In this document: piece by piece, positions 11,928 through 49,845 of the stretch
How positions within the stretch are numbered: the stretch's first letter is position 1
Layout of the letters: every line of letters begins with the position of its first letter
From: Longimicrobiales bacterium
GTDB lineage: Bacteria; Gemmatimonadota; Gemmatimonadetes; Longimicrobiales; Gaopeijiaceae
Length of the DNA stretch: 64,000 nucleotides
Direction: 5' to 3'
NCBI GenBank assembly: GCA_041690395.1
Contig: JAWLHJ010000004.1
Coordinates: 1 to 64,000 of the forward strand
Position numbers and translations under genes: made by a program
The notes under the pieces: generated by a model
Told to the model about the DNA's origin: nothing
The model's input: the letters and a program-made list of their open reading frames with translations, nothing else
Databases searched by the model: none

Positions 11928-12218
11928 ACACTCCTCCGTCGAGCCCGAGAATCCCCGCCCATCAAGGGACATGAGGGGCGGGTGAGACACCTTCGCACGA
12001 TCAGCGGATCCGCTCGTAGGCTGCGCAAACACGCTCTCCGAAAGCTCATGGCGTGCACCGCACGATGGCGTTCCTACCCAGGTACGCTCCCCACCGTCGC
12101 ACGGCAAGGGGGACCACGTCCGCGGCCCGGAGCGCGCCTTGCGGCGAGCCACGGGCATCCGCACTCTGAGGCCCTCGACCGAAGTCGGTACGCATCCCGG
12201 AGACTCAAGGGGGGGACC

Positions 12219-13175: not shown

Positions 13176-13193
13176 CCGTAGCGCAAAACGACT

Positions 13194-13237
13194 GGGCCCC
13201 GTGGGAGGCTGGCTCGCCTCCCGCGGGGCCCTTTCTT
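13194..13237 (+). terminator. Intrinsic terminator
   Basis: gggccccgtgggaggc / gcctcccgcggggccc stem followed by tttctt. Confidence 0.7.
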
Positions 13238-13268
13238 CATGCCTATTCGCCGCGTTGAGAGCGACTCG

Positions 13269-19178: not shown

Positions 19179-20185
<1,007 letters not shown>

Positions 20186-20189
<4 letters not shown>

Positions 20190-21112
20190 CGTCCTCCGAG
20201 CCCGACCAGCTCCTATCCCCCGAATTCCTCGACGGGCTCGACGACCTGGAGTGGGCCGCCCGCATGGTGGCGCGCGGCCTGACGCACGGGGTTCATCCGT
20301 CCGCCCTCCAGGGACGGAGCGGCGAGTTCGACCGCCACCGCGCGTATCAGCAGGGAGACGATCTCCGCCATCTGGATTGGCGCCTGCTCGCGCGCACGGA
20401 CCGCCTCTACGTCCGCCGCTTCCGGGAGACGTCCAACCTCGAGACCATGTTCGTCGTGGATGCCACCCCCTCCATGGACTTCTCGGGCGAGGGGGGAAGC
20501 CCGACCAAGCTGAGATGTGCCGTGCTGCTCGCGGCCGCACTCGGGCACGTGGCCCGTGGCGCGGGCGACCTTCCCGGTCTCGTCGTGACCGGCGGGCCGG
20601 ATGGGGAGCCCGCCGCGCTCCTCCCCGCCCGGGCGGGCCGTGAGCGCTGGCGGGCCTTCCTCCACGCGCTCCAGCGCACCGTGCCGGGAGCGCCGGCATC
20701 GCTCGCCCGGGCGGTCGAGCTGACGGGCGATCTACTCCCTCGGGGCGGCCGCGTGGTCATCCTCTCGGACTTCCTCGACGAAGACGATCTTCCCGCGCTC
20801 GTGAAGGCGACCGGGCAGCTGCGGGCCGGGGGCGCGGAGGTGATGGCCGTGCGGATCCTCACGCCGGAGGAGCTCGGTGAGAAGGGCGGCGACGACGCGC
20901 TCTGGGCCGACCCCGAGGATCCCGAGCGCCCGGTTCCGGGAGCGCCCTCCAAGGACGCGGCCTACCTCACCCGTCTCCACGCCTACTACCGGACGTGGGC
21001 TGCCCACCTCCGGGAGCAGGGCGTGCTCTGGCACGAGGCGCGCACGACGGACCCGTTGATCCCCCTGGTCCGCGCATGGATCCGGGAGGGCGCCGGCGGG
21101 CAGCCGCGGTGA
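20186..21112 (+). CDS. DUF58 (VWA-like) protein
   Basis: EFDRHRAYQQGDDLRHLDW..LARTDRLYVRRF; MIDAS-like DATPS; ILSDF; TTGA overlap with moxR. Confidence 0.9.
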
Positions 21113-22500
21113 TCGATCTCGCGCGACCCGGCTTTCTCTGGGCGGGAGCGCTGCTCACGCTCGGGCCGCTCATCCTGCACCTGCTCCGGCCGGTCGAGCG
21201 ATCCAGGAAGGTGTTGCCCACGAGCCGCTTTCTGACGCCCGATCCGAAGCGCCGCGTCCGGCTGCACCGCATGCCGGACGAGCGCACCCTGCTGCTCCTG
21301 AGAATGCTGCTGTGCCTTCTGCTGGGCGCGGCGTTCGCGGGAGTCGGATGGGTGGGCGCCGAGCGCGGCGTCGCGACGCTCGTCGTGGTCGACGGCGGGG
21401 GTGCGATGCGCGACGACTGGGCGCGAGCGCGAGACGTACTCGTGGGACAGCTCGATGGACGGAGCGCTCACGTCGTGATCGTGCGTCCGACGTCCGGTGC
21501 CCTGCCCGACCTCGAGCGGCTGGAGGCCGACATCCCGTCGGAGCCCCGCTGGGCCGAGCTCTCGCCCGGGATCGACGACGGAAACGTCCGGCTGGCGCAC
21601 CTGCTACGCGCGGTTCGGACCGCCGCGGAGCGTACGGTCGGCTACGACTCGATCGCGGCGATGGTTCTCACCGATCCGTCCTGGCGAGCCTGGTCGGCCG
21701 GCAGCGCGACGCTCCGCGAGCGCCTCTGGCCGGGGCGGATCCGGTTGGTGGTGCCCGCGGGCCGGACGGCTCCCGAGGGGGGCGCCGCGGGGGGGGAGGG
21801 TGCTCGGGCGGCCCCGCTCACCGTCGCGCTCCGAGCTCCCCCGGCGCTACGCCGCCCGTTCGCCGAAGCGCTCTCGGTCCTGGGGGCGACCGTCGATACG
21901 ACGGTTGCGGCGCCGTCATCCGGCCCCGACACGTCGACCGGTCTGCCCGGCCGGGACACTCCGGGCGAGATCATCCTGTCGGTCGGTCCCGACGCCGACG
22001 GATGGGACGGGCTCTGGCTGGCCGGCGAAAGGGACGCCGGCGCTCCCCCACACGACGCCTTTCTCCTTCTGGACGGGCGGACATTCCCGGGTGCGGGCTC
22101 GGCTCCCGGCGGGACCCCTGCGCCCGGAACGACGGTATCTCTCCTGAGGGTCGGCGGCCGGCCGGCCGCCGCGGCCCGGCGTGCGGACGCCGGGTGTCGA
22201 GTGGTCCTTCCCCTCGACCCGGAAGCACCGATCACGGGCTCGGCGGACCTACCCCTCGTCCTGGAAGGGGTGCTGGAGGCCGGCTGCGGCGTTCTACCCG
22301 AGCCACCGGGCGCGGAAGCAGCGTTCCGCCGCCTGCTGGAAGAAGGGAGCTACCCGGCGACGGTCGCGACAGCGGAGATCCGGGACGCGGGGGCAGGACG
22401 ACCGCTCGGGCGGTGGATTCTCCTGCTCGCGCTCCTGATCGCCGTGGCGGAGACGTGGACGAGCCGCGGGATCGAGGCGAGACGGCATGGGCGGGACTGA
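21109..22500 (+). CDS. BatA N-terminal domain membrane protein with a degenerate VWA-like region
   Basis: PGFLW..LGPLILHLL..LPTSRFL..LLLLRMLLCLLL; C-terminal TM LLLALLIAVAETW; GTGA overlap. Confidence 0.8.
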   Translation: MIDLARPGFLWAGALLTLGPLILHLLRPVERSRKVLPTSRFLTPDPKRRVRLHRMPDERTLLLLRMLLCLLLGAAFAGVGWVGAERGVATLVVVDGGGAMRDDWARARDVLVGQLDGRSAHVVIVRPTSGALPDLERLEADIPSEPRWAELSPGIDDGNVRLAHLLRAVRTAAERTVGYDSIAAMVLTDPSWRAWSAGSATLRERLWPGRIRLVVPAGRTAPEGGAAGGEGARAAPLTVALRAPPALRRPFAEALSVLGATVDTTVAAPSSGPDTSTGLPGRDTPGEIILSVGPDADGWDGLWLAGERDAGAPPHDAFLLLDGRTFPGAGSAPGGTPAPGTTVSLLRVGGRPAAAARRADAGCRVVLPLDPEAPITGSADLPLVLEGVLEAGCGVLPEPPGAEAAFRRLLEEGSYPATVATAEIRDAGAGRPLGRWILLLALLIAVAETWTSRGIEARRHGRD

Positions 22501-22524
22501 CGTAACGGTACTGACGAGAGCGGC

Positions 22525-25500
22525 ATGAACGGATCGACGACCGAGCTGGGCGGCTTCCTGGCCACATCGCGCGCCCTGTGGCGTCGCCGCACGGTAGCGC
22601 GCGGCGCCCTCCGGGGCGTCCTGGCCGGCGCCTGTGCCGTGGTCGTCCTTCTCGGAGCCGCGGCGCTGGACCTCGTTCCGGCGGCCTCGCAGCCTTGGTT
22701 GAGGTGGGCGCCATTGCTGCTCGTTGCGGTCCTTCCCTTTCTCGGGCTCCTGAGGGCCCTCGTTCGAACTCCGAGCGAGCGTTCGTTCGCGCTCAGGGCC
22801 GAAGAAGCGGTCCCCGAGCTCGAACACCTGCCGACGACGCTCCTCGATCTGCCGCAGGATCACCCATACGCGCCCGACCTCGAGCGTCGTGCCGGGGACC
22901 GGCTCCGTGGCGTCGGGCCCGGCCGCCTATTCGATCCGATCTGGTCCCGCGGCAGGGCACTCGGCGGAGGCATGATCGCCCTGCTGGCGTTGGTCGCGCT
23001 GACGACCTCCGGCGGGCCGACGACGGTGTGGGCGTCATGGGGAGGGTCGGTGGATCTCGGGCAGGGCCCCGAGCCGACGGCCGCGTCCGCGCCAGACGCG
23101 CGGTCGGAGCCGCTCGCAAGCCTGAGGGTCCGGGTCGTTCCACCGGACTACACCGGACTGTCCGTGACGGAGACGCCACTCGACGGCGTCGTCACGGCGA
23201 TCGCGGGCAGCCGCGTCGAGCTGAGCGGAACCGGGGGCGGGCCGGGCCTGGACGTGGCCCTCGTGCGCGGCGAGGGAGAGCGGGCGTCGCTGCCGTTGCG
23301 GCGGGAGTCGGCGCGCTGGGCGTCCGGCTGGACGCTCGAGGCCGGCGACCGCGGGGTGGTGCTGACCGACGACGAGGGGCGCGAGCGGGTCGTTCCGCTC
23401 TCGGCCCTGGACGACCCGCCGCCGACGGTCGAGCTCGTCGAGCCGGACCGTGACTTCGTGCTCGCGACCGGCACCGGCGCCATCGACTTCCATGCGCGGG
23501 CGACTGACCCGCTCGGTCTCGCCGAGTTCCAGCTCACCTGGGTCCACACGCGCGGGAGCGGTGAGTCGTTCGACTTCCGCGAGGGAACGGCGTCGTGGAC
23601 GTCACGCGAGCAGACGGCCGATGGGGTGGAGGGGCGCCTGGTGCTGAACCTCGCGGACCTGGAGCTCGGGCCTGGCGACGTGCTCCATCTCAGGGCGGTC
23701 GCCACCGACCGCAACGACGTCACCGGTCCGGGGACCGGCGTCTCCGAGACCCGCCAGATCCGGATCATCCGCGAGGGCGAGGAGATGTCGGTCGACGCCC
23801 TCGTCGGCTTCCCGCTCGAGCTCGATCAGCGACCGGTCCTGTCCCAACGCATGATCCTCCTGATGACCGAGGAGCTGCTCGAACGGGCCCCCGAGCTGTC
23901 CGCGGCGGCGTTCCGCGCCGAGGCCGAAGCGATCGGCGACGAGCAGGCGCGACTCCGGATGCAGGTCGCCGATCAGATCTACTCGCGCGCGACCGGAGCC
24001 ATGGAATCGGTGGAGACCCATCTGGGACACGAGGGCCTCTCGCCGGTCGCCGAGGCCGACGCACATGCCCACGAGCCACCCGCTGCCCCCGAGCCCTCCG
24101 GATCGCGATACGGCGTCGCGAGCGTGTTCGACCCGGCCAGCGAGGAGCCTTCGGAGCGCGAGGCCGAGCCCTTGCCGCCCGACCCGACCGAGGACCCGGA
24201 CCCCGCCGGAACGCAGGTCGGCAGCTACGAGGTCGGCGGCGCCGGGGCACTGCCCACCGGCTTCGGCGAGCTCGACGACCTGGGCCACGACCACGACTCC
24301 GACCCGGTGCTCTCGGTCAACCGGCCCCTACTGGCGATCCACGACGCGATGTGGGCGTCGGAGGGCGAGCTCCGCGTGATCGACCCTGCCGCGTCGCTCC
24401 CGCATCAGCGACTCGCGCTCGAGCGTCTCCAAGCGCTGCGCGATAGCGAGCGGGTCTTCCCGCGCGGCCAGGTGACCGTGCCACCGGTGGACGTGGCGGC
24501 GGCCCGGGGCACCGGCGAGGTGGACGACGCCGATCCGGCCCACCGCTCGGCCTGGTCCGGAGAGCGCGAGGCCGCTCGCTGGCTCCGCCGGCTCGAAGAG
24601 GTGCTCGGCGACCTCGCGAACGGTGCGCCGACCCTTCAGGGCGCCCTCGAACGGCTGGCCGTCGAGCTCGTTGCCGATCCCGCGGTCGATCCGGCGGTCG
24701 TCGCCCCTGTAGCCCGCGCCACCGAGCGGCTTCGGGCGGGTGACGCGGACGGCGTGCGGACCGACCTGCTCGAGGCCCGGGCCCTGCTCGACCCGAGGGG
24801 CGAGCGCGTCGCGTCCGACCCGGTATCGTCCTGGCCGGGCTCGCCTTCCAGCGCCCTGGCGGTTCCGAACTCCCCGGGGCCCGACGGTCCGCCGTCGGAC
24901 GATCGGCCGGTGGCGGAGGCCTCCGCGAAGCCCTTCGTGTTCGCCACGCTCCGCTACGAGTCGGGCAACTGGGACTCGGCTCCGCTCGTCCCGCAGAATC
25001 TGATCCACACGCTGGCGCAGTACACGGAGCTGCCGGTCGCTCCGGAAGGGGTGGTGGTCGACCTGTCCTCGAGGGAGATCTTCCAGTACCCGGTGCTCTA
25101 CCTGACCGGACACCTGCCGGTGCGCTTCTCCAGCGAGGAGAGCCGCAACCTCCGGGAGTACGTCGAGCGTGGCGGCTTCGTCTTCATGGACGACCACAAC
25201 CACGACATCGACGGCGCCTTCCACCGGACCGCCACCGCGGAGCTCGAGCGCATCTTCGGCCGGGAGGCTCTGGAGGCGCTCCCCGCCGATCACGAGATCT
25301 ACCGGGCCTTCTTCCACTTCGAGGACGGGCCGCCGATCACCGCGCACGAGCTCTCCGGTTGGGGAGACGGCCTGATTCACCGCGAGCTCTTCGCGGTCGT
25401 GCGCGACGGCCGGATCGGTGTCCTGTACTCGAACAAGGACTACTCGTCGGAGTGGAGCTACCACGCCGTAAACAAACGTTTCCTGGCCGTGGACAATACC

Positions 25501-25542
25501 CGGTTCGGCGTCAACATCCTTCTCTACGCGCTGACCCGGTGA
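22525..25542 (+). CDS. Membrane-anchored DUF4175-like scaffold fused to a C-terminal DUF4159 domain
   Basis: N-terminal TMs; PPDYTGL, DPPPTVELVEP, LGPGDVL..ATDRN. From about 24931: LRYESGNWD, YPVLYLTGH, GGFVFMDD, RFGVNILLYAL. One uninterrupted 1005-aa ORF. Confidence 0.75.
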   Translation: MNGSTTELGGFLATSRALWRRRTVARGALRGVLAGACAVVVLLGAAALDLVPAASQPWLRWAPLLLVAVLPFLGLLRALVRTPSERSFALRAEEAVPELEHLPTTLLDLPQDHPYAPDLERRAGDRLRGVGPGRLFDPIWSRGRALGGGMIALLALVALTTSGGPTTVWASWGGSVDLGQGPEPTAASAPDARSEPLASLRVRVVPPDYTGLSVTETPLDGVVTAIAGSRVELSGTGGGPGLDVALVRGEGERASLPLRRESARWASGWTLEAGDRGVVLTDDEGRERVVPLSALDDPPPTVELVEPDRDFVLATGTGAIDFHARATDPLGLAEFQLTWVHTRGSGESFDFREGTASWTSREQTADGVEGRLVLNLADLELGPGDVLHLRAVATDRNDVTGPGTGVSETRQIRIIREGEEMSVDALVGFPLELDQRPVLSQRMILLMTEELLERAPELSAAAFRAEAEAIGDEQARLRMQVADQIYSRATGAMESVETHLGHEGLSPVAEADAHAHEPPAAPEPSGSRYGVASVFDPASEEPSEREAEPLPPDPTEDPDPAGTQVGSYEVGGAGALPTGFGELDDLGHDHDSDPVLSVNRPLLAIHDAMWASEGELRVIDPAASLPHQRLALERLQALRDSERVFPRGQVTVPPVDVAAARGTGEVDDADPAHRSAWSGEREAARWLRRLEEVLGDLANGAPTLQGALERLAVELVADPAVDPAVVAPVARATERLRAGDADGVRTDLLEARALLDPRGERVASDPVSSWPGSPSSALAVPNSPGPDGPPSDDRPVAEASAKPFVFATLRYESGNWDSAPLVPQNLIHTLAQYTELPVAPEGVVVDLSSREIFQYPVLYLTGHLPVRFSSEESRNLREYVERGGFVFMDDHNHDIDGAFHRTATAELERIFGREALEALPADHEIYRAFFHFEDGPPITAHELSGWGDGLIHRELFAVVRDGRIGVLYSNKDYSSEWSYHAVNKRFLAVDNTRFGVNILLYALTR

Positions 25543-27206
25543 GCGACGCCCCGACTCCGGCGAAGCGCGAAGGCCGCGACCTCGCGGGCCTGCTGCGCGG
25601 CATCACGCTCGGCGTGCTCCTGGCGCTGATCCTCGTTGGACTTCCGGGGAGCGGTACGGGCTCGGAAGGGGTTCTGGGCTCGCCTCCGGCCCGGGCGGTC
25701 TCCGCCGCGTCCCTCGAGGCGGAAGGCTGGGGCGACATCCTGGAGCACGCCGCGGAGGCACCCCTGACGGCCGTCGTCTCCGGACGTCCCCCGCCCGTCG
25801 TCGTCGAGCCTCCCCGGCGGGTGCGGGCGGAGCGGACATCGGCCCTGCGGGTCCGAGCGCTCGAGCGGGCGGAGATCACGCTCGGGCACCCCGACGGGAC
25901 CGCGGACACACTGCGACTCGAGGCCGGCGAGATGGGCGCGTTCCTGCTCCGGCCCTTCTCCCCGGGCTGGAGGTCCTGGCGCCTGGGCGTCGTGCCGGAC
26001 GGCCGGGAGCCCTCCGGGACGGAATGGGCCGCGCTCGTCCGTCCCGCCCGGCCGGTCCGGGTGCTGGCCATCTCGGGACCGCCGGGCCCGGAGCCCCGTG
26101 CGGCCATGAGGGCGCTCGAGGAATCCGGCGAGGCCGTGGAGGGCTGGACGCGCCTCGGGAGAGGGCTGTGGATCGGGCATGGCGGAGAGGATCTCCCCAC
26201 CGACCCCGTGGCATACGAGGGCTTCGACGTCGTGGTGCTCTTTCCCGGCGTCGCCGTGCCCCCTGCGTCGGCACGCGCGCTGCTCGCCGCGGTGACGGAT
26301 CAGGGCAAGGGACTCCTGCTGGCCGGCGCGACAGGCGATGCTCCCGAGCTCCAGACCGTCATCGCCGGCGTCACGGGGCGAGCCGCCTGGAGCGACGAGA
26401 TCGCCGTCGCCGCGGATAGGCTGACCTGGCGAATCCCTCCCGAGGTGACGCCCCTCCCGCCGCTGACGCTCGATACGCGCATGCTCGTCTCCGCGACCCG
26501 CCCGCCCGACGACCCCGTGTCGGCGCGGCCGGCCCTGGCCCTCGGCACCCTCGGACGGGGACGTGTGGGGGCGCTGGCCCTCCCCGACACGTGGATCTGG
26601 CGCATGACCGCCGGCGCAGAGGAAGGACACCGAACCTTTTGGCGCGACCAGGTCTCATGGCTGGCGGAGGGCTTCCAGGAGGACCCGATCCTGGAGCTTC
26701 TGGCGGCCGACGTGCGCCGCGGTGAGCGGGTACTCGTGCGTCGTATGGATGGTGGGCCGGATCCGGAGGCCCCGGGCGACGTTGCGTCGGGCCCACCGCC
26801 CGCGTTCAACGTCCGCGGCCCGAGCGAAGCGTGGACCGCCGAGGCCGCTCCCATCCGCTCGACCCCGACGGCGAGGATGTCGCTGGCGGCGTTCGCGGCC
26901 ACCGAGACGGGGGCCTATGTGCTCGGCGACGACGCCACGCCGGAGGCCGCCCTCGCGGCCGACCGCGAACCCGTGTTGGCCGTCGGAGTCAGATCAGAAA
27001 GCGCCCCGGGGCTCGATCCGGAGGGCCGTCTCGCGCGCATCGCGCTCGCTTCACCCGGCGGATCGGTGGTCGTCGACGCGGCCAGCGCCGCCGGCATCCC
27101 AGCAGGCACCGGCCCCGGGTGGCCGTGGCGGGCGTTCATCTTCTCGCTTCTCGCCGTCCTCCTGACCGCCGAATGGCTCCGGCGCCGCCTGACGGCCCGC
27201 CCGTGA
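25539..27206 (+). CDS. Membrane protein of MoxR/BatA clusters, probable non-catalytic GATase-like domain
   Basis: GTGA overlap; VRVLAISG, FDVVVL, GKGLLLAG, GRGRVG..DTWIWRM..HRTFW; C-terminal TM with AEWLRRR. Confidence 0.65.
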   Translation: MSDAPTPAKREGRDLAGLLRGITLGVLLALILVGLPGSGTGSEGVLGSPPARAVSAASLEAEGWGDILEHAAEAPLTAVVSGRPPPVVVEPPRRVRAERTSALRVRALERAEITLGHPDGTADTLRLEAGEMGAFLLRPFSPGWRSWRLGVVPDGREPSGTEWAALVRPARPVRVLAISGPPGPEPRAAMRALEESGEAVEGWTRLGRGLWIGHGGEDLPTDPVAYEGFDVVVLFPGVAVPPASARALLAAVTDQGKGLLLAGATGDAPELQTVIAGVTGRAAWSDEIAVAADRLTWRIPPEVTPLPPLTLDTRMLVSATRPPDDPVSARPALALGTLGRGRVGALALPDTWIWRMTAGAEEGHRTFWRDQVSWLAEGFQEDPILELLAADVRRGERVLVRRMDGGPDPEAPGDVASGPPPAFNVRGPSEAWTAEAAPIRSTPTARMSLAAFAATETGAYVLGDDATPEAALAADREPVLAVGVRSESAPGLDPEGRLARIALASPGGSVVVDAASAAGIPAGTGPGWPWRAFIFSLLAVLLTAEWLRRRLTARP

Positions 27207-27275
27207 ACGACTTGTCGCACCCTCATCCGACCCGCACATTGCGGCTCGCTCGACCACCCGTTCCGTGGAGTCGTA

Positions 27276-28898
27276 ATGAAACGACGTGATTTCATCCGTC
27301 ACTCGGCCGTAGCGGCCGCGGGCCTGACGGTCTTCCCCCGCCCCGAGCTGCTGCACGGTGTGCTCTCGCCGGTCGCGCACGGGCCGGTCGTACAGGACGC
27401 CGCCAGGCGCGAGCTCGCGTCCCGCGCGTTGGAAGCGGCCCGCTCGGCGGGCGCCGACTGGGCGGACATCCGTATCAACACCAACCGCAACCAGGGGATC
27501 TCCACGCGGGAGCGGCGGATCACCGGGGTCTCCGACAACGTCACCTCCGGCTTCGGCGTCCGCGTGCTGGTCGACGGCACCTGGGGCTTCGCGGCGAGCG
27601 GGAACGTCACGAACGACGAGGTCGTGCGGGTGGCCCGGCAAGCCGTGACGCAGGCCCGGGCGAACCGTGCGGCGCAGCGCGAGCCCGTCCGGCTCGCTCC
27701 CGCCGACGTCGAGCCGAACGGCGTGTGGAGGAGCCCCATCCGCACGGATCCGTTCGAGATCCCGATCGAGGACAAGGTCGAGTACCTCTTCGCGGCGAAC
27801 GAGGCCGCCCTTACCGTCTCGGGCTCCCGCTTCGTGAACTCGTCGATGTTCTTCCTCCGAGAGGACAAGTTCTACGGGAACTCCGAGGGGACCTTCACGG
27901 ACCAGACCATCTACCGGGCCTACCCACGGATGACGGTCACCGCCGTCTCGTCTGACGGAGCGGACTTCCAGTCGCGCGCATCGACGGACATCGCGCCCCG
28001 GGCGCTGGGCTGGGAGCACGTCACGGACTCCGACATGCTCGGGCTCGCCCCGATGTTCGCCGAGGAGGCGGTCGAGAAGCTGTCCGCCCGCTCCGTCGAT
28101 CCCGGGGAGTACGACCTCGTGCTTCTCCCCACCCACCTCTGGCTCACGCTCCACGAGGCCATCGCGCATCCGACCGAGCTCGACCGGATCATGGGCTTCG
28201 AGGCCAACTACGCGGGCACCTCGTTCATCTACCCGCTCGAGGACTACCTCGGGACGTTCCGCTACGGCCCCGAGTTCATGAACGTCGTTGGCGAGCGCTC
28301 CTCGCCGGGCGCGCTCTCCACCGTCGGTTGGGACGACGAAGGGGTCGCTCCGCGGGACTACCACATCATCCGCGACGGCGTGCTGAACGACCTGCAGACG
28401 ACCCGCGAGCAGGCGCTCTGGCTGGAGGACTGGTACCGCAGCCAGGGCCGGGAAGCGCGCTCCCACGGGAACTCCTACGCGCAGTCGTGGGCGGACGTGC
28501 AGTTCCAGCGCATGCCGAACATCAACCTCGAGCCCTACCCCGACCGGGACGTCTCGCTCGAGGAGCTCATCGGCGACATCGACCGCGGCATCATCATCGA
28601 TGGGGACGGCTCGTTCTCCATCGATCAGCAGCGCTACAACGCGCAGTTCGGCGGACAGACCTTCCGCGAGATCCGGAACGGACGTGTGGAGGGCATGCTC
28701 AAGGACGTGGCGTATCAGATCCAGACGCCGCAGTTCTGGAACGCCATGGACCTCTGCGGCGGTCCCAGCACGTACTTCATGGGCGGCGCCTTCGGCGACG
28801 GCAAGGGTCAGCCAGCGCAGTCCAACGCCATCTCGCACGGGTGCCCCGCGACCCGTCATCGCAACATCACCGTCATCAACACAGCCAGGAGCGTCTGA
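27276..28898 (+). CDS. tldD: TldD-family metalloprotease with Tat signal (copy 1)
   Basis: MKRRDFIRH signal; GFGVRVLVDGTWGFAAS; HEAIAH zinc motif; GWDDEGV; RMPN; C-terminal GKGQP..HGCP. Confidence 0.9.
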   Translation: MKRRDFIRHSAVAAAGLTVFPRPELLHGVLSPVAHGPVVQDAARRELASRALEAARSAGADWADIRINTNRNQGISTRERRITGVSDNVTSGFGVRVLVDGTWGFAASGNVTNDEVVRVARQAVTQARANRAAQREPVRLAPADVEPNGVWRSPIRTDPFEIPIEDKVEYLFAANEAALTVSGSRFVNSSMFFLREDKFYGNSEGTFTDQTIYRAYPRMTVTAVSSDGADFQSRASTDIAPRALGWEHVTDSDMLGLAPMFAEEAVEKLSARSVDPGEYDLVLLPTHLWLTLHEAIAHPTELDRIMGFEANYAGTSFIYPLEDYLGTFRYGPEFMNVVGERSSPGALSTVGWDDEGVAPRDYHIIRDGVLNDLQTTREQALWLEDWYRSQGREARSHGNSYAQSWADVQFQRMPNINLEPYPDRDVSLEELIGDIDRGIIIDGDGSFSIDQQRYNAQFGGQTFREIRNGRVEGMLKDVAYQIQTPQFWNAMDLCGGPSTYFMGGAFGDGKGQPAQSNAISHGCPATRHRNITVINTARSV

Positions 28899-28901
28899 GT
28901 C

Positions 28902-30245
28902 ATGGCCTTTCTTTCCGAAAGCGAAGCCCGGGAGCTGACACGACGCGTGCTGGCGCTGTCGCAGGCGGACCATTGCCGGGTCAACATCAGCAGCGACATG
29001 GAGGGCAACACCCGCTTCGCCCAGAACCAGATGAGCACCTCGGGCGACATCCAGAACACGACGCTAACCGTGAACAGCGCGTTCGGGCTGCAGGTGGCGT
29101 CGTCCACGACGAATCGCTTCGACGATGCGTCGCTCGAACAGGTCGTCCGCACGTCGGAGGCGCTCGCGCGCCTCGCGCCGGAGGACCGCGAGTACATGGG
29201 CGAGCTCGGGGCCCAGGCGTACCCGGACTCCCGGTCGTACTACGAGTCCACGGCGAACCTCGAGCCGGACGTGCGGGCCCGCGCCATCGCCGAGGTGACC
29301 GAGCAGTCGGTCGCCGAGGACCTCATCTCCACGGGCTTCCTGACGCACCGGTCGGGCGCCAGCTGCGTGGCGACCTCCGCGGGGCTGTTCGCGTACACCA
29401 CCGACAGCCGGGCCAACTTCACGACGACCATCCGCACCCCGGACGGGACGGGGTCCGGCTGGGCGGGGACCAGCGTCAATGACTGGAACGACCTCAGGAC
29501 CGGCGAGCTCGGGAGTATCGCGGTGCAGAAGGCGATCCAGAGCCGGGAGCCCCGCGACGTCGAGCCCGGCCGCTGGACGGTGGTCATGGAGCCGACGGCG
29601 GTCGGGAACATGGTCAACCTGATGATGAACTCGCTCTCGGCACGCGCCGCGGACGAGGGGCGCTCGTTCTTCTCGTCGCCGGGTGGCGGGAACAAGATCG
29701 GAGAGCAGTTCGTGGATTCGAGGGTCACCATCCACTCCGACCCCGAAGACCGGCGCATCCACTCCACTCCCTTCAACAACGAGGGCCTGCCCAACCGCCG
29801 GACCGTCTGGGTCCAGGACGGCGTTCTCCAGGAGCTCAACTACGACCGCTACTGGGCCGAGCAGAACGGCCGGGAGCCCACGGGCTTCCCGTCCGGCTGG
29901 TACATGGCCGGTGGGTCGGACACGCTCGAGGAGATGATCGCGTCGACGGAGCGGGGACTGCTCCTCACGCGCTTCTGGTACATCCGGGGCGTGGACCCGC
30001 GGACGATCCTGTTCACGGGGCTCACCCGCGACGGGACGTTCCTCATCGAGAACGGGCGGATCTCGCACCCCGTGAAGAATCTGCGCTGGAACGAGACCCC
30101 CATCTTCATGCTCAACAACATCGAGATGATGGGCGCGCCCGTGCGGATCTCGTCCGGTGAGTCCGCCGGCCTCACGCCGACCGTGATCGTGCCGCCGTTG
30201 AAGGTGCGCGACTTCGCCTTCACGTCGACCTCGGACGCCATCTAG
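28902..30245 (+). CDS. TldE/PmbA-family partner subunit, no signal peptide
   Basis: NTRFAQN, EPGRWTVVMEP, FNNEGLP, TGLTRDGTFLIENG; no HExxxH motif. Confidence 0.85.
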   Translation: MAFLSESEARELTRRVLALSQADHCRVNISSDMEGNTRFAQNQMSTSGDIQNTTLTVNSAFGLQVASSTTNRFDDASLEQVVRTSEALARLAPEDREYMGELGAQAYPDSRSYYESTANLEPDVRARAIAEVTEQSVAEDLISTGFLTHRSGASCVATSAGLFAYTTDSRANFTTTIRTPDGTGSGWAGTSVNDWNDLRTGELGSIAVQKAIQSREPRDVEPGRWTVVMEPTAVGNMVNLMMNSLSARAADEGRSFFSSPGGGNKIGEQFVDSRVTIHSDPEDRRIHSTPFNNEGLPNRRTVWVQDGVLQELNYDRYWAEQNGREPTGFPSGWYMAGGSDTLEEMIASTERGLLLTRFWYIRGVDPRTILFTGLTRDGTFLIENGRISHPVKNLRWNETPIFMLNNIEMMGAPVRISSGESAGLTPTVIVPPLKVRDFAFTSTSDAI

Positions 30246-30259
30246 AAGGGGCAGCAGCC

Positions 30260-31882
30260 ATGAAGCGACGAGACTTCCTCCGACACTCCGCCGTGACCGC
30301 GGCGGGCCTGACGGTCCTCGGCCGTCCGGAGCTCCTCCACGGTGTGCTGTCTCCCGTCGCGCACGGCCCCGTCGTGCAGGACGCCGAGCGACGGGACCTG
30401 GCCGAGCGCGCGCTCGAGGCCGCACGGTCCGCGGGGGCCGAGTGGGCCGACGTGCGGATCAACACGAACCGCAGCCAGGGGATCTCGACCCGCGACCGCA
30501 GGATCACCGGGGTGGCCGACAACATCACGTCGGGCTTCGGGGTGCGGGTGCTCGTCGGCGGCACGTGGGGCTTCGCCGCGAGCGGGACGGTGACGCGCGA
30601 CGAGATGGTGCGGGTCGCTCGCCAGGCCGTCGCCCAGGCGAGCGCGAACCGGGCCGCGCAGCGCGAGCCCGTCCAGCTCGCGCCGGCGGAGGTGGAGCCG
30701 AACGGCGTCTGGCGGAGCCCCATCCGTACGGACCCGTTCGACATCGCCATCGAGGACAAGGTCGAGTACCTGTTCCAGGCGAACGAGGCGGCGCTGGCGG
30801 TATCCGGAGCGCGGCTCGCCTCGTCGAACCTCCGCTTCCTGCGGGAGGAGAAGTTCTACGCGAACAGCGAAGGGACGGTGACAGACCAGGTCGTCTACCA
30901 GTCGTATCCGACCATGAGCGTGACCGCGGTCTCTTCCGACGGCTCGGACTTCCAGTCGCGGAACTCGACCGACATCCCGCCGCTCGCCCTCGGCTGGGAG
31001 CACGTGGTCGACTCCGACATGGTGGGGCTGGCCCCGATGTTCGCCGAGGAGGCGGTCGAGAAGCTGTCGGCCCGCTCGGTCGAGCCCGGGGAGTACGACC
31101 TGGTGCTCCTCCCGAGCCACCTCGGCCTGACGCTGCACGAGTCCGTCGCGCATCCGACCGAGCTCGACCGCATCATGGGCTTCGAGGCCAACTACGCGGG
31201 CACGTCGTTCATCTACCCGCTCGAGGACTACCTGGGCAGCTTCCGGTACGGCCCCGAGTTCATGAACGTCGTGGGCGAGCGCTCGACACCGGGCGCGCTC
31301 TCCACTGTCGGCTGGGACGACGAAGGGGTCGCTCCGCGCGACTACCACATCGTGCGGGACGGCGTCCTGAACGACCTGCAGACGACGCGCGAGCAGGCGC
31401 TCTGGCTGTCGGACTGGTACGAGAGCCAGGGTCGCGAAGTGCGCTCGCACGGCAACTCCTACGCGCAGTCCTGGGCGGACGTGCAGTTCCAGCGCATGCC
31501 GAACATCAACCTCATGCCGTATCCCGATCGCGACGTGTCGGTCGAGGAGCTCGTCAGCGACATCGACCGCGGCATCATCATCGACGGGCGGGGCTCGTTC
31601 TCCATCGACCAGCAGCGCTACAACGCGCAGTTCGGCGGCCAGACGTTCCGCGAGATCCGGAACGGACGCGTGGAGGGCATGCTCAAGGACGTCGCGTACC
31701 AGATCCGGACGCCGGAGTTCTGGAACGCCATGGACCTGTGTGGCGGGCCGAGCACCTACCAGATGTACGGCACCGTCGGTGACGGTAAGGGTCAGCCGTC
31801 ACAGTCGAACGCGGTCACGCACGGATGCCCCGCGACACGGCACCGCGGCATCACGGTGATCAATACGGCCAGGAGCGTGTGA
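30260..31882 (+). CDS. tldD: TldD-family metalloprotease with Tat signal (copy 2)
   Basis: Same length as copy 1 (540 aa), about 86% identical by manual count; HESVAH motif. Confidence 0.9.
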   Translation: MKRRDFLRHSAVTAAGLTVLGRPELLHGVLSPVAHGPVVQDAERRDLAERALEAARSAGAEWADVRINTNRSQGISTRDRRITGVADNITSGFGVRVLVGGTWGFAASGTVTRDEMVRVARQAVAQASANRAAQREPVQLAPAEVEPNGVWRSPIRTDPFDIAIEDKVEYLFQANEAALAVSGARLASSNLRFLREEKFYANSEGTVTDQVVYQSYPTMSVTAVSSDGSDFQSRNSTDIPPLALGWEHVVDSDMVGLAPMFAEEAVEKLSARSVEPGEYDLVLLPSHLGLTLHESVAHPTELDRIMGFEANYAGTSFIYPLEDYLGSFRYGPEFMNVVGERSTPGALSTVGWDDEGVAPRDYHIVRDGVLNDLQTTREQALWLSDWYESQGREVRSHGNSYAQSWADVQFQRMPNINLMPYPDRDVSVEELVSDIDRGIIIDGRGSFSIDQQRYNAQFGGQTFREIRNGRVEGMLKDVAYQIRTPEFWNAMDLCGGPSTYQMYGTVGDGKGQPSQSNAVTHGCPATRHRGITVINTARSV

Positions 31883-45943: not shown

Positions 45944-48580
45944 TCAGACTCCGTAGAAGGCGCGCACCCTGCGCGTCAGGTCGGTCCACGCCCCCTTCAC
46001 CAACGGCGCCGGCGGCAGCGACCCCTGGAGGTAGCGGCCGTAACGGCGCGTGACGAGGCGGTCGTCCAGAACCAGCACCACGCCCCGATCGGACTGGCTG
46101 CGGACGAGCCGCCCGAACCCCTGCTTGAGCCGGAGCGCGGCATGCGGGAGCATGAAGTCCCGGAAGGAGTCGCCCCCCGCGGCCTCCACGGCCTCCATGC
46201 GAGCGGCGGTGATCGGTTCGGTCGGCACCCTGAAGGGCAGCTTGTGGATGATGAGCGCGCGAAGCGGCTCCCCCGGGACGTCGACCCCCTCCCAGAACGA
46301 GCTGGTCCCGAGCAGGACGCCTCGGCCGGAGGTGACGAAGCGCTCGACGAGCCGGTGCCGGGCGTCCTCCCCTTGTACGAAGAGCGGCCACCGGGTATCC
46401 GCGCCCATCTTCCGCAGGACGTCCGCGGCTCTCCGCAGCGCCGCGTGCGACGTGAAGAGCACGAAGATCCCGCCGTCCGTGACGTCGGCCATCTCCACGA
46501 CGGTGTCCGCGACCCCGTCGCCGGAACTCCGCAGGGTTCGCTCCCAGGCTTCTCCGCCCCCCGCGGACCTGAAGCCCCCCGACGCGGCCCCCCGATCCGT
46601 GGGGACGACCAGGAGCGTGTTGTGCTCGAAGTCGAACGGGGAGTCGATGACCCGCTCGCGGACGGCGCCGATCTCCTCCATGGCGTCCGGGCCGGCGTCA
46701 CGCTCGCTGAGCCCGAGCCGGCCCTTCAGGAAGTCGAACGACCCACGGGTGGTGAGCGTCGCGGAGGTCAGGACGGTGGTCTCGGCCTTCGAGAACAGCG
46801 ATTCGCGGAGGACCTCGCCGAGCTCGATCGGCGCCGCGGCGAGCGCCAGGTTCCGCGATCGTCCGGATCCGCTCCTCCGCCCCTCCATCCAGCGGACGTA
46901 GCGCCCGCCTTCCTCGCCGGGAACGAGCACGAGGCGGAGCCCCTGCACCGCCGCGGCGATCCGGCGCTCGATGGAGCGGAGGTCGAGGAGCCGGCCTTCG
47001 AGGCGATCGGAGAGCTCCTCCTGCATCTCCAGTCGAGCCCTGAGCTCGGCGACCTCCCGCTCGAGCAGGGACAGCGCGGACACGGCCGCCCGCAGGGCCT
47101 CCTGCACGTCCATCCGCTCCGCCGGCTCACCGACACCCTTCGGTCCCAACCGCGCGACGGTCTCGTCTCCGTCCACCAACATCTCGAGCCGATCGACGAG
47201 CCCTTCGAGCGCCGCCCGCCCCTTCGAAGCAGCGGGACGTACCCGGTTCTCGAGCCGCTCCCGGAGCGGCACGGCGTCACGGGTGCCGGCGAGTGCCTCA
47301 TGGACGGCGGTGAGGACGCCCCGGCCCCGTCGGTCGAGACGCGACAGCATCCGGTACAGTCCCGAGCGGGTCAGCTCGACACCGAGGTGCGACGTCGCCG
47401 CGTCCTCGACGTTGTGGGCCTCGTCGAGGATCACCCGCTTATACGGAGGGAGTACGGCGGAGTGCGTGTAGTTCTGCGTCGCGCGCCGGACCGCCAGGTC
47501 GGTGAACAGGAGGTGGTGGTTCACCACGAGGAGCTGGGCAGAGGCCGCGTTCCGCCGCGAGCGCTGGTAGAAGCACTGTTGGAAGTGCGGACAGCGCGCC
47601 CGGAGGCACATGTCCGGATCGCTCCGGACCTCGTCCCACACGTCGTCCGAAGGGGTGAAGTCCAGATCGGACAGCGAGCCGTCGTCGGTCGCGTCGATCC
47701 AGGACAGGAGCGCCTTCAGCTCCGCCGAGCGGTCGTCCTCGAACAGGCTGGCCTGCCCCTCCGCCGCCAGCAGCGCCCGCCGGATCGAGACGTAGTTGCC
47801 CCGTCCCTTCACGAGCGCCCAGGACACCTCGCCGACCAGCCGCTCGACGAGTGGGAGATCCTTCCCGACGAGCTGCTCCTGGAGGTTGATCGTGTTCGTC
47901 GACAGCACGGTCCGCTCGCCGTTGCGGAGCGCCCACAGCGCGGCAGGGACCAGGTACGCCAGCGACTTCCCCGTTCCGGTGCCCGCTTCCACCAGCGTCA
48001 CGCCGCCTTCGTTGAACGACTCGGCGACCAGCGCCGCCATCGCTCGTTGGCCGGGTCGGTCCTCGTAACCCCGCATGCCCCGTTCGAGCGCCCCGCCCGC
48101 GCCGAGCACGGCCTCGACCTCGCCCGCCTCGATCGGCTCCACGACCCGTGGCGCGGGAGGCTCGACGACGACGTAGAGGCGCTCCGCCTCGTTGTCCACG
48201 ATCGCCGTGCCGAGGCCCTGCTCGTAGAGGAGCGAGGCGACGCGCATGTCCGCGTCGGACGGCTCCAGGACACCCGAAGGATGGTTGTGCACCATCACTC
48301 CGCCCTGGGGGGCATCCCGCGCGGCGACCAGCACGGCCTCGTAGTTGCCGCGGGCGACCGCCCTCGGGTCGCGCACCACCCGGGCGTCGTCCACCGTTGC
48401 CAGAAAGCAGACCTCCCGCCCACCCGCCCGCCGAACCTCGGCGCGTATGCGGGCGGCGGACTCGGGCGCGAGCGTCAGCTCGCGTGCGGGACCGCCCGTG
48501 CGACCTCCGGGCTTCTCGTCCGGCTCGTGCTCCTCGAGCCCGTCCAAGCCGACGAGGAAGGCGCCTTCGGGAAGGGTCAC
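45944..48580 (-). CDS. DinG/YoaA-family helicase with N-terminal JAB/RadC-like domain
   Basis: EVCF..HNHPSG..PSDAD; RPGQ, EAGTGTGKS, ILDEAH, TSATL, SFWEGVD, LKQGFGRLVR; GTGA overlap. Confidence 0.9.
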   Translation of the reverse strand: MTLPEGAFLVGLDGLEEHEPDEKPGGRTGGPARELTLAPESAARIRAEVRRAGGREVCFLATVDDARVVRDPRAVARGNYEAVLVAARDAPQGGVMVHNHPSGVLEPSDADMRVASLLYEQGLGTAIVDNEAERLYVVVEPPAPRVVEPIEAGEVEAVLGAGGALERGMRGYEDRPGQRAMAALVAESFNEGGVTLVEAGTGTGKSLAYLVPAALWALRNGERTVLSTNTINLQEQLVGKDLPLVERLVGEVSWALVKGRGNYVSIRRALLAAEGQASLFEDDRSAELKALLSWIDATDDGSLSDLDFTPSDDVWDEVRSDPDMCLRARCPHFQQCFYQRSRRNAASAQLLVVNHHLLFTDLAVRRATQNYTHSAVLPPYKRVILDEAHNVEDAATSHLGVELTRSGLYRMLSRLDRRGRGVLTAVHEALAGTRDAVPLRERLENRVRPAASKGRAALEGLVDRLEMLVDGDETVARLGPKGVGEPAERMDVQEALRAAVSALSLLEREVAELRARLEMQEELSDRLEGRLLDLRSIERRIAAAVQGLRLVLVPGEEGGRYVRWMEGRRSGSGRSRNLALAAAPIELGEVLRESLFSKAETTVLTSATLTTRGSFDFLKGRLGLSERDAGPDAMEEIGAVRERVIDSPFDFEHNTLLVVPTDRGAASGGFRSAGGGEAWERTLRSSGDGVADTVVEMADVTDGGIFVLFTSHAALRRAADVLRKMGADTRWPLFVQGEDARHRLVERFVTSGRGVLLGTSSFWEGVDVPGEPLRALIIHKLPFRVPTEPITAARMEAVEAAGGDSFRDFMLPHAALRLKQGFGRLVRSQSDRGVVLVLDDRLVTRRYGRYLQGSLPPAPLVKGAWTDLTRRVRAFYGV

Positions 48581-49845
48581 TGGGTCTTCAGCGTCCGTTT
48601 CTTCGCCGCCGGGAACAGGACGTTGTTGAGGATCAGGCGATACCCGGGCGAGTTCGGGTGGAGCGCCAGATCCGTCGCCGGATCCCCGATCTGGTGCTCG
48701 GGATCCTCGGGGTCGTGACCACCGAAGTACGTGAAGGTGCCCTCCCCCACGTTGCCGTGGACGTACTTGGCCCAAGGCCCCTCCTCGGCCAGCACGACCA
48801 CGCTCGGCTGCAGACGGTCCTTACGGAACGACGTCGTGAGACCGTAGAAGTCGGGCAGGATCGACTCGTGGTTCTGCGTCAGCATGGACGGGACCGGGTC
48901 GAACTTCGCCGAGAAGTCGAAGAGCGAGAACGCCCCCAACTCCTCGCGCCACGCCGTGTTCACCTGATGGCCGTCGATGTCGGAGAAGGAGCTGACCGAC
49001 GGATTCACCTGAACGTCCGCGTCGGTGAACGCCATCGCCCGGTCCCACTGCATGCGGGCCGAGGCGTCCGGATCGGGCGGCGTACCGTCCGCATAGCTCG
49101 CCGCGATGTCGACTTCCGGCCCGGCGGCCAGCGCCAGCTCGAGCGTCTCCGTCGCCGAGCACATCGCGAAAAGGAAGCCTCCGCCCTCGATGTAGTCGCG
49201 GATACGCTGGGCGACGGCCTTCTTCAGGTCGGGCACCGTCGCGTAACCGTGCTCCCGGGCCACCGCGCGGTTCCGCGCGACTTCGTCCTGGAGCCAGGGC
49301 GCGCCGGAGTAGGTCAGATAGAACTTCGAGTACTGACCGGTGAAGTCCTCGTGATGCAGATGGATCCACTCGTACTCCGACAGGTCGCCGGTGAGCACCT
49401 CCGGATCCCAGATCGTCTCGTACTCGATCTCAGCGTACTCGAGCGCCATCGTCACGGCGTCGTCCCACGGGGTCGAGTTGGGTGGCGTGTAGACCGCGAC
49501 CCGCGGAGCCCGCTCGAGCGGCACCGCCTCCATATTGGACTCGGCGATCGTCGCCCGGATGCTCGCTTCGGCGGCGGCGTCGACCGGCACGATCGTCACG
49601 CCACGGAGCGCCGCCTGGCGCCGCACATCCGCGAGATCGGGAAGCAGGAACGAGCCGTTCCGATAATTCAGCAGCCACTCCGCGCTGAGCTCCTGGACGA
49701 GCACCCAATGCGTGAGTCCGTAAGCTTTGAGATGATTGCTCTGGCTCCGGTCCATGGGAACCAGCAACCGTTGAGCCGACAGCCCGGCAGGCGCGAAGAG
49801 CGTGCCGGCCAGGAGGAGCATGACGAAGGTTCGGATAAGGCTCAT
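48577..49845 (-). CDS. Secreted class I GATase-like protein (family often labelled asparagine synthetase B)
   Basis: Signal peptide ending LSA-Q; HLKAYG, PWDDAV, LHHEDFTGQY, GGFLFAMCSA, GHDPED, SPGYRLILNN. It lacks the real AsnB architecture. Confidence 0.7.
   Translation of the reverse strand: MSLIRTFVMLLLAGTLFAPAGLSAQRLLVPMDRSQSNHLKAYGLTHWVLVQELSAEWLLNYRNGSFLLPDLADVRRQAALRGVTIVPVDAAAEASIRATIAESNMEAVPLERAPRVAVYTPPNSTPWDDAVTMALEYAEIEYETIWDPEVLTGDLSEYEWIHLHHEDFTGQYSKFYLTYSGAPWLQDEVARNRAVAREHGYATVPDLKKAVAQRIRDYIEGGGFLFAMCSATETLELALAAGPEVDIAASYADGTPPDPDASARMQWDRAMAFTDADVQVNPSVSSFSDIDGHQVNTAWREELGAFSLFDFSAKFDPVPSMLTQNHESILPDFYGLTTSFRKDRLQPSVVVLAEEGPWAKYVHGNVGEGTFTYFGGHDPEDPEHQIGDPATDLALHPNSPGYRLILNNVLFPAAKKRTLKTQ

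What the first reader, a model, noticed from the sequence alone, without database searches (positions are those of the whole stretch)
22525..25542. Rosetta-stone pair inside the window: DUF4175-like and DUF4159 fused here, separate at 51605-55650
Seen: the N-terminal part shares ordered motifs with 51605-54985 (PPDYTGL/PPHTGL, DPPPTVELVEP/DAAPFVDILEP, ATDPLGL/AADDYGL, LGPGDVL..ATDRN/LMPGDEV..VSDN). The C-terminal domain aligns with 54982-55650 (YPVLYLTGH/YPYLYMTGH, GGFVFMDD/GGFLHADD, PADH/PADH, GVNILLY/GVNLVLY). Inference: DUF4159 and the scaffold are physical partners forming a common core. That core is used with two different catalytic payloads: TldD/E in one module and a GATase-like enzyme in the other.
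Basis: partly seen in the sequence, partly recalled or inferred. Interest (0 to 1): 0.7.

Follow-up and report, generated by a model that had tools for sequence, protein, structure and literature searches.

The report
Real scaffold–DUF4159 fusion in MoxR module
In one group of Gemmatimonadota bacteria a single gene joins a predicted membrane-anchored scaffold protein to an uncharacterised DUF4159 domain that most relatives encode as the next gene, so the two likely work as parts of one unstudied cell-envelope machine that likely serves a protease predicted to be exported.

Summary
The fusion is real. It is one 1005-aa frame, 94 of 103 homologues carry both parts, and contigs from three other studies bridge the junction. 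The in-window split pair (module B) is only a distant paralogue: the scaffolds share the membrane anchor and two Ig domains (hhalign 98.7%) but not their helical tails, and the gene order is reversed. The true Rosetta pairs lie in other genomes, where the same operon (MoxR–DUF58–BatA–scaffold–DUF4159–GAT-like) is split in 67 fetched loci, 58 of 64 parsed with a 4-nt stop/start overlap. Direct binding gets only weak support (0.48 against 0.00 for controls). Two cautions apply: type-B DUF4159 also fuses to unrelated neighbours (RsmI, RsmE), and 54 of 64 free type-A copies lack a signal peptide. The shared core is larger than proposed, since an orphan DUF58–BatA pair tracks scaffold B in 39 of 41 genomes. 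TldE tracks module A even when unlinked. Best guess: a MoxR-driven envelope machine that matures or activates exported TldD/E, with DUF4159 as a His/Asp-rich periplasmic head. New variant of a known, uncharacterised kind.

The parts
22525..25542 (+). Fusion gene, 1005 aa: DUF4175-like scaffold (type A) joined to DUF4159
22606..23013 (+). Three predicted transmembrane helices (about aa 28-50, 58-80, 143-163); inferred N-in, C-out
   Evidence: hydropathy; helices in model; orientation inferred from flanking Arg residues
23122..23772 (+). Two predicted Ig-like domains (aa 200-416), homologous to Ig domains 2-3 of scaffold B
   Evidence: generic Ig matches, Z about 8; hhalign 98.8%
23845..24816 (+). 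Predicted helical bundles (aa 441-764) with a long low-confidence insert; no detectable homology to the tail of scaffold B
24286..24297 (+). HxHD motif (aa 588-591), found in 50 of 50 fused and 10 of 47 split scaffolds
24817..24924 (+). Low-confidence Pro/Ser-rich linker where split orthologues have their stop/start overlap
24940..25533 (+). DUF4159 domain (class I glutaminase-like clan). H863, D890, H891, D894, D896, E942, D948, H952 and D972 are invariant in 97 of 97 type-A rows
   Evidence: (4I66, Z 21.6, rmsd 2.2, 188 aligned)
19179..20189 (+). MoxR AAA+ ATPase (probable ATG start; the open frame begins at 18948)
20186..21112 (+). DUF58 / VWA-like adaptor
21109..22500 (+). BatA-N double-transmembrane protein with a degenerate MIDAS
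25539..27206 (+). GAT-like membrane protein with no Cys seen at the nucleophile position; start overlaps the fusion's stop (GTGA)
   Evidence: only sub-threshold DUF4350 hits in orthologues; fold not tested
27276..28898 (+). TldD 1 with Tat signal and HExxxH (HEAIAH)
28902..30245 (+). TldE/PmbA, no signal peptide, no HExxxH
30260..31882 (+). TldD 2 with Tat signal and HESVAH; 86% identical to TldD 1
54982..55650 (-). Module B: free DUF4159 with Sec-like signal peptide
51605..54985 (-). Module B: scaffold B, 1126 aa; three transmembrane helices, three Ig domains and a long helical region predicted
49842..51608 (-). Module B: TPR protein with signal-like N-terminus
48577..49845 (-). Module B: 422-aa protein (Atlas name 'asparagine synthetase B', no Pfam family); GGFLxAMC in 12 of 12 loci and GGHD; glutaminase-like by motif only

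Best explanation
The gene is a real, inherited fusion of a predicted membrane-anchored scaffold and a DUF4159 domain that likely act as subunits of one MoxR-powered envelope machine, which likely matures or activates a TldD/E protease predicted to be exported. Shown: the fusion, its spread in one Longimicrobiales clade, the split form of the same operon elsewhere, and the co-occurrence with TldE. Inferred: MoxR and DUF58 act on the cytoplasmic side. The scaffold's three helices anchor it, and its Ig domains and helical bundles reach into the periplasm and hold DUF4159. DUF4159 is a glutaminase-clan fold with Asp at the nucleophile position and an invariant His/Asp/Glu set, likely a metal-holding or client-contacting head. 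By analogy with MxaRSACKL and NorQD, ATP-driven remodelling would load metal into, or release, the client enzyme. Module B would be a paralogous machine with a different client (the 422-aa Cys protein), using the orphan DUF58-BatA pair elsewhere on the chromosome.
For: Fusion conserved in 94 of 103 homologues. Fused rows group on the DUF4159 tree beside the signal-bearing split forms (SH-aLRT 92-94, quick tree). The same operon is split in 67 fetched loci, and 58 of 64 parsed have the DUF4159 start overlapping the scaffold stop by 4 nt. The scaffold gene is in the locus in 68 of 68 cases with enough upstream DNA and MoxR plus DUF58 in 52 of 52 (these loci were ranked by likeness to the whole fusion, which favours this). 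All 6 loci taken from the phylum search, which used the DUF4159 domain alone, also had a scaffold within about 6 kb. Complex prediction of the two halves: weak support, 0.48 against a best control of 0.00; runs agree in at least 47% of contacts; partner pLDDT at least 83. The mark was reached by 116 of 157 solved and 2 of 215 mismatched pairs, but at 0.60 or under by only 18 solved pairs and both mismatches. The sequence and fold searches returned no solved complex of this kind, only 4I66 alone. TldD/E is adjacent in 11 of 11 fused loci with 6 kb downstream. TldE is present in 9 of 10 module-A genomes and 2 of 31 others, and in 29 of 30 split-form genomes where it is not adjacent. Precedents: MxaR, S, A, C, K and L are needed for Ca2+ loading of periplasmic methanol dehydrogenase (PMC12276312, passages); NorQD inserts metal (PMC13036017, abstract); TldD is a Zn/Fe enzyme (PMC5810440, abstract and section 12).
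Against: The binding score is in the weak band, no interface was given, and 50 of the 97 rows in each alignment were fused proteins. Type-B DUF4159 fuses to RsmI (21) or RsmE (10) in 31 of 59 longer hits, so this domain fuses with unrelated neighbours. 54 of 64 free type-A copies have no signal peptide, although their scaffolds show the same N-terminal hydrophobic pattern, which does not fit a simply periplasmic subunit. Tat substrates usually leave the cytoplasm with cofactor already bound (general knowledge, recalled), which weakens periplasmic metal loading of TldD. TldD/E is adjacent in only 8 of 45 split loci, and G025 has module A without TldE. The BatA-like subunit lacks an intact MIDAS. 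The 29 of 30 count has no control from that family, and kin are not independent.
Confidence: 0.45

Rival explanations
1. The fusion is a tether and export convenience. DUF4159 needs to be near the outer face of the membrane and fuses with whichever gene precedes it; its true binding partner is the GAT-like neighbour or TldD/E, not the scaffold.
For: RsmI-DUF4159 and RsmE-DUF4159 fusions, many keeping a hydrophobic stretch before the domain. The GAT-like gene is present in 66 of 67 loci with 2.5 kb downstream. DUF4159 copies with Tat-like signals sit next to TldD/E in G032, G091 and G131. Signal-less copies could ride out with Tat-exported TldD, as signal-less TldE must if it is exported (inference). 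The linker is long and low-confidence.
Against: The fusion is kept across a whole clade with a fairly constant spacing (133-535 aa, median 146, from the last scaffold motif, 87 proteins). The complex prediction passed its mark, weakly. A monomer pTM of 0.65 for a five-domain chain hints at fixed packing (inference).
Confidence: 0.3
2. The module is a periplasmic peptide-processing assembly in which DUF4159 is itself a metal-dependent hydrolase working beside TldD/E (module A) or the Cys enzyme (module B); MoxR assembles or recycles the complex rather than maturing a client.
For: Invariant His/Asp/Glu residues in 97 of 97 type-A rows, and Asp-Asp at the elbow position in all 5 DUF4159 copies of this genome. 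Glutaminase I clan (PMC4702930, section 12). E. coli TldD/E trims unfolded peptides without sequence specificity (PMC5810440, abstract).
Against: The His residues are not kept in three of the genome's five DUF4159 copies nor in 4I66. No catalytic activity is on record for the family in the papers found. Spatial clustering of the residues was not checked.
Confidence: 0.2
3. The fused frame is an assembly or sequencing artefact.
For: Such artefacts occur in this family: L079 and the two DUF4159-scaffold-B read-throughs P0244 and P0260 look frameshifted. No run held half of the window's words, so the source reads were not seen.
Against: 94 independent fused homologues at 39-92% identity, bridging contigs from three studies, and even codon bias across the junction.
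Confidence: 0.01

Closest known systems
TldD-TldE-DUF4159-MoxR-DUF58-BatA-scaffold-membrane protein operon
   Same: The paper lists MoxR, two TldD proteins, a membrane protein, a putative protease and hypothetical genes in one co-regulated operon. G091 has the order TldD-TldE-DUF4159-MoxR-DUF58-scaffold. That the Stenotrophomonas operon is this module is my inference; I did not fetch it.
   Different: Here DUF4159 follows the scaffold and is fused to it, TldD is duplicated, and TldD/E lies at the 3' end.
Pfam DUF4175 (PF13779)
   Same: Predicted N-terminal membrane anchor, Ig domains and helical tail; 3 of 6 type-A homologues scanned pass the cut-off.
   Different: Neither window protein passes (fusion: no hit at E up to 1; scaffold B: E 0.02). 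The type-A tail is shorter and carries DUF4159.
Pfam DUF4159 (PF13709), PDB 4I66 Hoch_4089, Glutaminase I clan CL0014
   Same: Passes the cut-off; the model matches 4I66 at Z 21.6.
   Different: Type A has a DDHNHD/TGH/HE residue set that 4I66 lacks, and here it is a C-terminal domain of a membrane protein.
MxaR-MxaS-MxaA-MxaC-MxaK-MxaL (PMC12276312, passages) and NorQD (PMC13036017, abstract)
   Same: A MoxR ATPase with VWA-type partners, genetically tied to a metalloenzyme.
   Different: No homology of scaffold or DUF4159 to Mxa or Nor proteins was tested; the client and metal are unproven; the BatA-like VWA lacks a MIDAS.
Bat-type MoxR-DUF58-BatA operons (Borrelia bb0170-bb0176, PMC5700661, passages)
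   Same: MoxR, DUF58 and a BatA-N membrane protein; BB0173 is reported to face its VWA domain to the periplasm.
   Different: No BatB/C/D/E genes were detected; scaffold, DUF4159, GAT-like protein and TldD/E take their place.
E. coli TldD/TldE (PMC5810440, abstract and section 12)
   Same: HExxxH in both TldD copies and none in TldE.
   Different: Tat signals on both TldD copies; scores far below the NCBIfam equivalog cut-offs; substrate unknown.

Membership tests
DUF4159 (PF13709) | Pfam gathering score 25.9 | tested here: met
   177 bits (fusion) and 229 bits (module B)
DUF4159 (PF13709) | Fold of 4I66 | tested here: met
   Z 21.6, rmsd 2.2, 188 of 200 aligned
DUF4175 (PF13779) | Pfam gathering score 27.3 | tested here: not met
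   No hit for the fusion's N-part; 13.4 bits for scaffold B. Homologues P0029, P0045, P0025, P0213 and this genome's scaffold C pass, so 'DUF4175-like'.
DUF4175-like scaffold | N-terminal membrane helices, Ig domains, helical tail | tested here: met
   Predicted for both scaffolds; profile match over anchor and Ig domains; Atlas neighbour cluster with DUF4175 on 10% of members (a lead)
Rosetta-stone pair (orthologous split form exists) | The same two domains as separate genes in other genomes | tested here: met
   67 split loci; 58 of 64 parsed with a 4-nt overlap
Rosetta-stone pair (orthologous split form exists) | The domain is not promiscuous in fusions | tested here: not met
   31 of 59 longer type-B hits are RsmI or RsmE fusions; tested for type B only
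Rosetta-stone pair (orthologous split form exists) | Direct physical interaction | tested here: inconclusive
   Weak support, 0.48 vs 0.00, no interface given; module B pair not tested
Class I glutamine amidotransferase (active enzyme): DUF4159 domain | Cys nucleophile after the GGxxxxx strand | tested here: not met
   Asp in 97 of 97 type-A rows and in all 5 genome copies; the position was assigned by motif analogy (recalled), not by superposition
Class I glutamine amidotransferase (active enzyme): 422-aa module B protein | Cys nucleophile, catalytic His and glutaminase fold | tested here: inconclusive
   GGFLxAMC and GGHD in 12 of 12; no Pfam or PDB hit; nearest Atlas clusters with a family (BPL_N, GATase_3, ThuA) score 0.81 or less; not folded
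MoxR-VWA chaperone systems | MoxR AAA+ with Walker motifs next to a VWA-type gene | tested here: met
   AAA_3 E 7e-63, GVPGLAKT and DEINR; DUF58 adjacent
MoxR-VWA chaperone systems | Intact MIDAS in a VWA partner | tested here: inconclusive
   DUF58 has DxSxS in 52 of 63 hits (window copy DATPS); the BatA-like protein has no canonical MIDAS in the 32 hits listed
MoxR-VWA chaperone systems | ATP-dependent metal insertion or client remodelling | not testable with these tools
   Needs biochemistry
TldD/TldE metalloprotease | HExxxH in TldD, absent from TldE | tested here: met
   PMC5810440 section 12

The most novel reading that the evidence does not exclude
These operons encode an undescribed trans-membrane maturation machine in which a cytoplasmic MoxR/DUF58 motor works through BatA and the scaffold to load metal into, or switch on, an exported enzyme. 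DUF4159 is a glutaminase fold re-tooled as a His/Asp metal-holding head, delivered by four interchangeable routes: fused to the scaffold, Sec signal, Tat signal, or signal-less hitch-hiking on TldD. Paralogous copies in one genome each serve their own client.
Probability: 0.25. Interest if true: 0.75.

Novelty: new variant of a known kind. Interest (0 to 1): 0.42.

Why it matters
MoxR-DUF58-BatA envelope operons are widespread and unexplained. DUF4159 appears in one paper of the library, as a name in a Pfam figure legend. The fusion ties two unknown domains together, fixes the side of the membrane on which DUF4159 must work in this clade, and gives a one-gene construct for structure work. The natural fused, Sec, Tat and signal-less series, together with the invariant His/Asp set, gives direct tests of location, partner and metal binding. 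It does not reveal the machine's function, and the module itself has been noted before.

Tried and rejected
Assembly artefact: rejected. An independent second fusion in L079: rejected as a frameshifted record, since the linker is out-of-frame sequence and the scaffold is broken into two frames; I moved it to the split class for but it stayed labelled fused in the tree. G173's 959-aa open frame: checked, it is split. DUF4159-scaffold-B fusions P0244 and P0260: single records with out-of-frame linkers, not counted as real. Programmed frameshifting as a way to fuse the split genes: the 58 overlaps are ordinary NTGA couplings, mostly preceded by purine-rich stretches, and I saw no shared slippery run by eye. 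Homology of the scaffolds' helical tails: none found. My first counts of the GAT-like gene were spoiled by hits to an overlapping wrong-frame start and were redone with a profile. Fold searches of both scaffolds gave only generic Ig matches. NCBIfam gave no family for scaffold or DUF4159. The search of 50%-identity representatives could not be run, so the range outside Gemmatimonadota and the fusion partners of type-A DUF4159 were not surveyed. Sequencing runs held at most 0.20 of the words, so no habitat claim is made. The careful tree did not finish; the quick tree has very long outgroup branches, so fusion versus fission is not settled. Literature: TldD+TldE+twin-arginine 0 papers; Hoch_4089 0; at least 3 of MoxR/DUF58/BatA/TldD 2 papers, neither with TldD; TldD+MoxR 3; DUF4175 4, of which I read passages of one, on the Acinetobacter division protein AdvA. 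Supplements were not searched and may list the operon.
Full report
Observation. The ORF at 22525-25542 is a single 1005-aa frame with steady third-position GC across its length. Pfam finds DUF4159 at aa 806-1003 and in the 222-aa gene at 54982-55650; the two domains are 33% identical. The N-terminal part matches the 1126-aa protein at 51605-54985 only marginally by BLASTP (E 0.001). The homology covers the membrane anchor and two Ig domains. The helical tails gave probabilities under 3% in 4 of 4 comparisons, and scaffold B has a third Ig domain. Neither window protein passes the DUF4175 cut-off, though several homologues do, so 'DUF4175-like' is the right label.

The fusion is real. Of 103 homologues, 94 carry a scaffold motif and DUF4159 in one chain and 9 lack DUF4159; the named ones are mostly Gemmatimonadota or Longimicrobiales. 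Contigs of related strains from three studies, one of them an RNA library, span the junction. The model (mean pLDDT 79.7, pTM 0.65) shows an N-terminal helical anchor, two Ig domains, helical bundles, a low-confidence linker and the DUF4159 domain, which matches PDB 4I66 (Z 21.6). Hydropathy gives three membrane helices, and Arg-rich flanks imply the rest faces the periplasm (inference).

Where the real Rosetta pairs are. The gene sits in an operon MoxR-DUF58-BatA-fusion-GAT-like-TldD-TldE-TldD (module A). Of these, 14 are fused, 67 are split, 1 (L079) is a frameshifted record, 5 are cut by contig ends, and 1 (G032) is a divergent arrangement. In 58 of the 64 split loci that could be parsed, the DUF4159 start overlaps the scaffold stop by 4 nt. 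Among 151 genomes drawn from the phylum, 36 have a type-A DUF4159, and only this genome's frame is fused; the one other long frame was checked and is split. On a quick tree the fused rows group together beside the signal-bearing split forms of Longimicrobium type, with two split loci nested inside. The root is unreliable, so the direction of change is not settled. The in-window pair (module B) is a different subfamily: DUF4159 first, then scaffold and the 422-aa protein in 12 of 12 loci (12 of the 29 scaffold-B genomes), with the TPR gene between them found in 11. Among 59 longer relatives of its DUF4159, no credible fusion to scaffold B was found.

Do they bind? I folded the scaffold's outer part (aa 195-764) with the DUF4159 domain, each with a 97-row alignment (47 split loci prepared, one dropped). 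The verdict was weak support: 0.48 against a best control of 0.00, runs agreeing in at least 47% of contacts, partner pLDDT at least 83. That mark was reached by 116 of 157 solved and 2 of 215 mismatched pairs, but at 0.60 or under by only 18 solved pairs and by both mismatches; no interface was given. Two results cut against a simple reading. First, type-B DUF4159 is fused to RsmI in 21 and RsmE in 10 of 59 longer hits, often through a hydrophobic stretch, so this domain fuses with unrelated neighbours. Second, free type-A DUF4159 has a Sec-like leader in 10 loci and none in 54, although the scaffolds of those loci show the same N-terminal hydrophobic pattern. Other copies have Tat-like leaders next to TldD/E. 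Hitch-hiking on Tat-exported TldD, as signal-less TldE would need, would reconcile this, but it is untested.

Core and payload. In module A the GAT-like membrane gene is present in 66 of 67 loci with enough downstream DNA, and MoxR plus DUF58 in 52 of 52 with enough upstream DNA (selection favours complete loci). TldD/E is adjacent in 11 of 11 fused but only 8 of 45 split loci. TldE is nevertheless present in 9 of 10 module-A genomes and 2 of 31 others, and in 29 of 30 split-form genomes where it is not adjacent (includes unpublished G049; no within-family control). Module B has no MoxR, DUF58 or BatA beside it. An orphan DUF58-BatA pair elsewhere on the contig matches scaffold B in 39 of 41 genomes: 27 both, 12 neither, and 2 misses in incomplete genomes; G019 and G022 were scored as lacking B because their hits were weak and paralogue-like. 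Its 422-aa protein keeps GGFLxAMC and GGHD in 12 of 12 loci but has no Pfam or PDB match, so 'GATase-like' rests on motif analogy.

How it most likely works. DUF4159 belongs to the Glutaminase I clan (PMC4702930, section 12). At the position where the 422-aa protein has Cys it has Asp, and type A keeps H863, D890, H891, D894, D896, E942, D948, H952 and D972 in 97 of 97 rows. That suggests a metal or substrate site; I could not check their clustering in the model. MoxR/VWA systems with known roles load metal into enzymes: MxaRSACKL for a periplasmic dehydrogenase (PMC12276312, passages) and NorQD (PMC13036017, abstract). TldD is a Zn/Fe enzyme with HExxxH (PMC5810440, abstract and section 12), a motif present in both window copies. 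My best reading (0.45) is a MoxR-driven envelope machine, with scaffold and DUF4159 as subunits, that matures or activates TldD/E. The rivals are a tethering fusion with another true partner (0.30) and a multi-enzyme peptide-processing assembly in which DUF4159 is catalytic (0.20).

Novelty. A paper notes an uncharacterised Stenotrophomonas operon with MoxR and two TldD genes, some of whose genes are down-regulated in biofilms (PMC7688217, passage). Three earlier notes of this scan describe the module in other genomes (unchecked AI notes). Searches for DUF4159 (1 paper), DUF4175 (4), the MoxR/DUF58/BatA/TldD set, TldD+MoxR, TldD+TldE+twin-arginine (0) and Hoch_4089 (0) returned nothing on the fusion, judged from listings and the passages named; one search was seen as a listing only, apart from the two papers cited from it. 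Look-ups in earlier findings by sequence, place and words returned no note of the fusion; only 8 of the 199 notes that hold the word DUF4159 were shown. The library lacks most subscription papers, and supplements were not searched. Verdict: a real, clade-wide fusion and a new variant of a known but unexplained envelope module; useful as an experimental handle, moderate interest (0.42).

Noticed in passing
G060 (genome of locus L103), many contigs: 56 TldE-like matches at E 1e-40 or better in a 3.3-Mb genome, against 0-4 in the other 29 genomes searched: an extreme expansion of the TldD/E family.
   Followed up: no
P0224-P0235 and others; P0245, P0248-P0252, P0254-P0257: Recurrent fusions of the rRNA methyltransferases RsmI (21 hits) and RsmE (10 hits) to a following DUF4159, many through a hydrophobic stretch. 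In the window, rsmI overlaps the DUF4159-B start by ATGA at 55647-55650.
   Followed up: partly
G000:C4:218767-221659 (L030): Orphan DUF58-BatA/VWA pair whose presence matches scaffold B in 39 of 41 genomes; the two misses are 71% and 78% complete. Likely the missing part of module B. An orphan MoxR lies at C4:280961-282130, untested.
   Followed up: partly
G000:C6:304318-320050 (L029): A third module: DUF4159, GAT-like membrane protein, TPR protein with a sub-threshold Peptidase_MA_2 hit, second DUF4159, MoxR, DUF58, BatA-VWA and a scaffold that passes DUF4175. A fifth, lone DUF4159 lies at C3:301987-303060.
   Followed up: partly
window 19179-31882: Module A was not found in 6 same-genus or 24 same-family genomes. 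Five congeners match the right flank (from about 31975 or 33100) but not the genes between moxR and it. It behaves as an accessory island here, while module B is in 21 of 24 family genomes as an orthologue.
   Followed up: partly
L043, L022: Split loci nested inside the fused clade on the quick tree; L043 has a purine-rich stretch, an ATGA overlap and no signal peptide: possible secondary fissions.
   Followed up: partly
P0107, P0138: Long single records (1713 and 1393 aa) joining scaffold B to the following TPR protein; P0138 looks frameshifted.
   Followed up: no
window 6890-17662: Two tandem SusC/SusD-like pairs (TonB-dependent receptor plus SusD), and a DUF1592/DUF1552/ankyrin cluster at 861-6604.
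   Followed up: no
window 37176-38621: selA (selenocysteine synthase) is present. Earlier notes report selenocysteine-bearing DUF4159 proteins elsewhere; the two DUF4159 domains in the window have no in-frame TGA.
   Followed up: no
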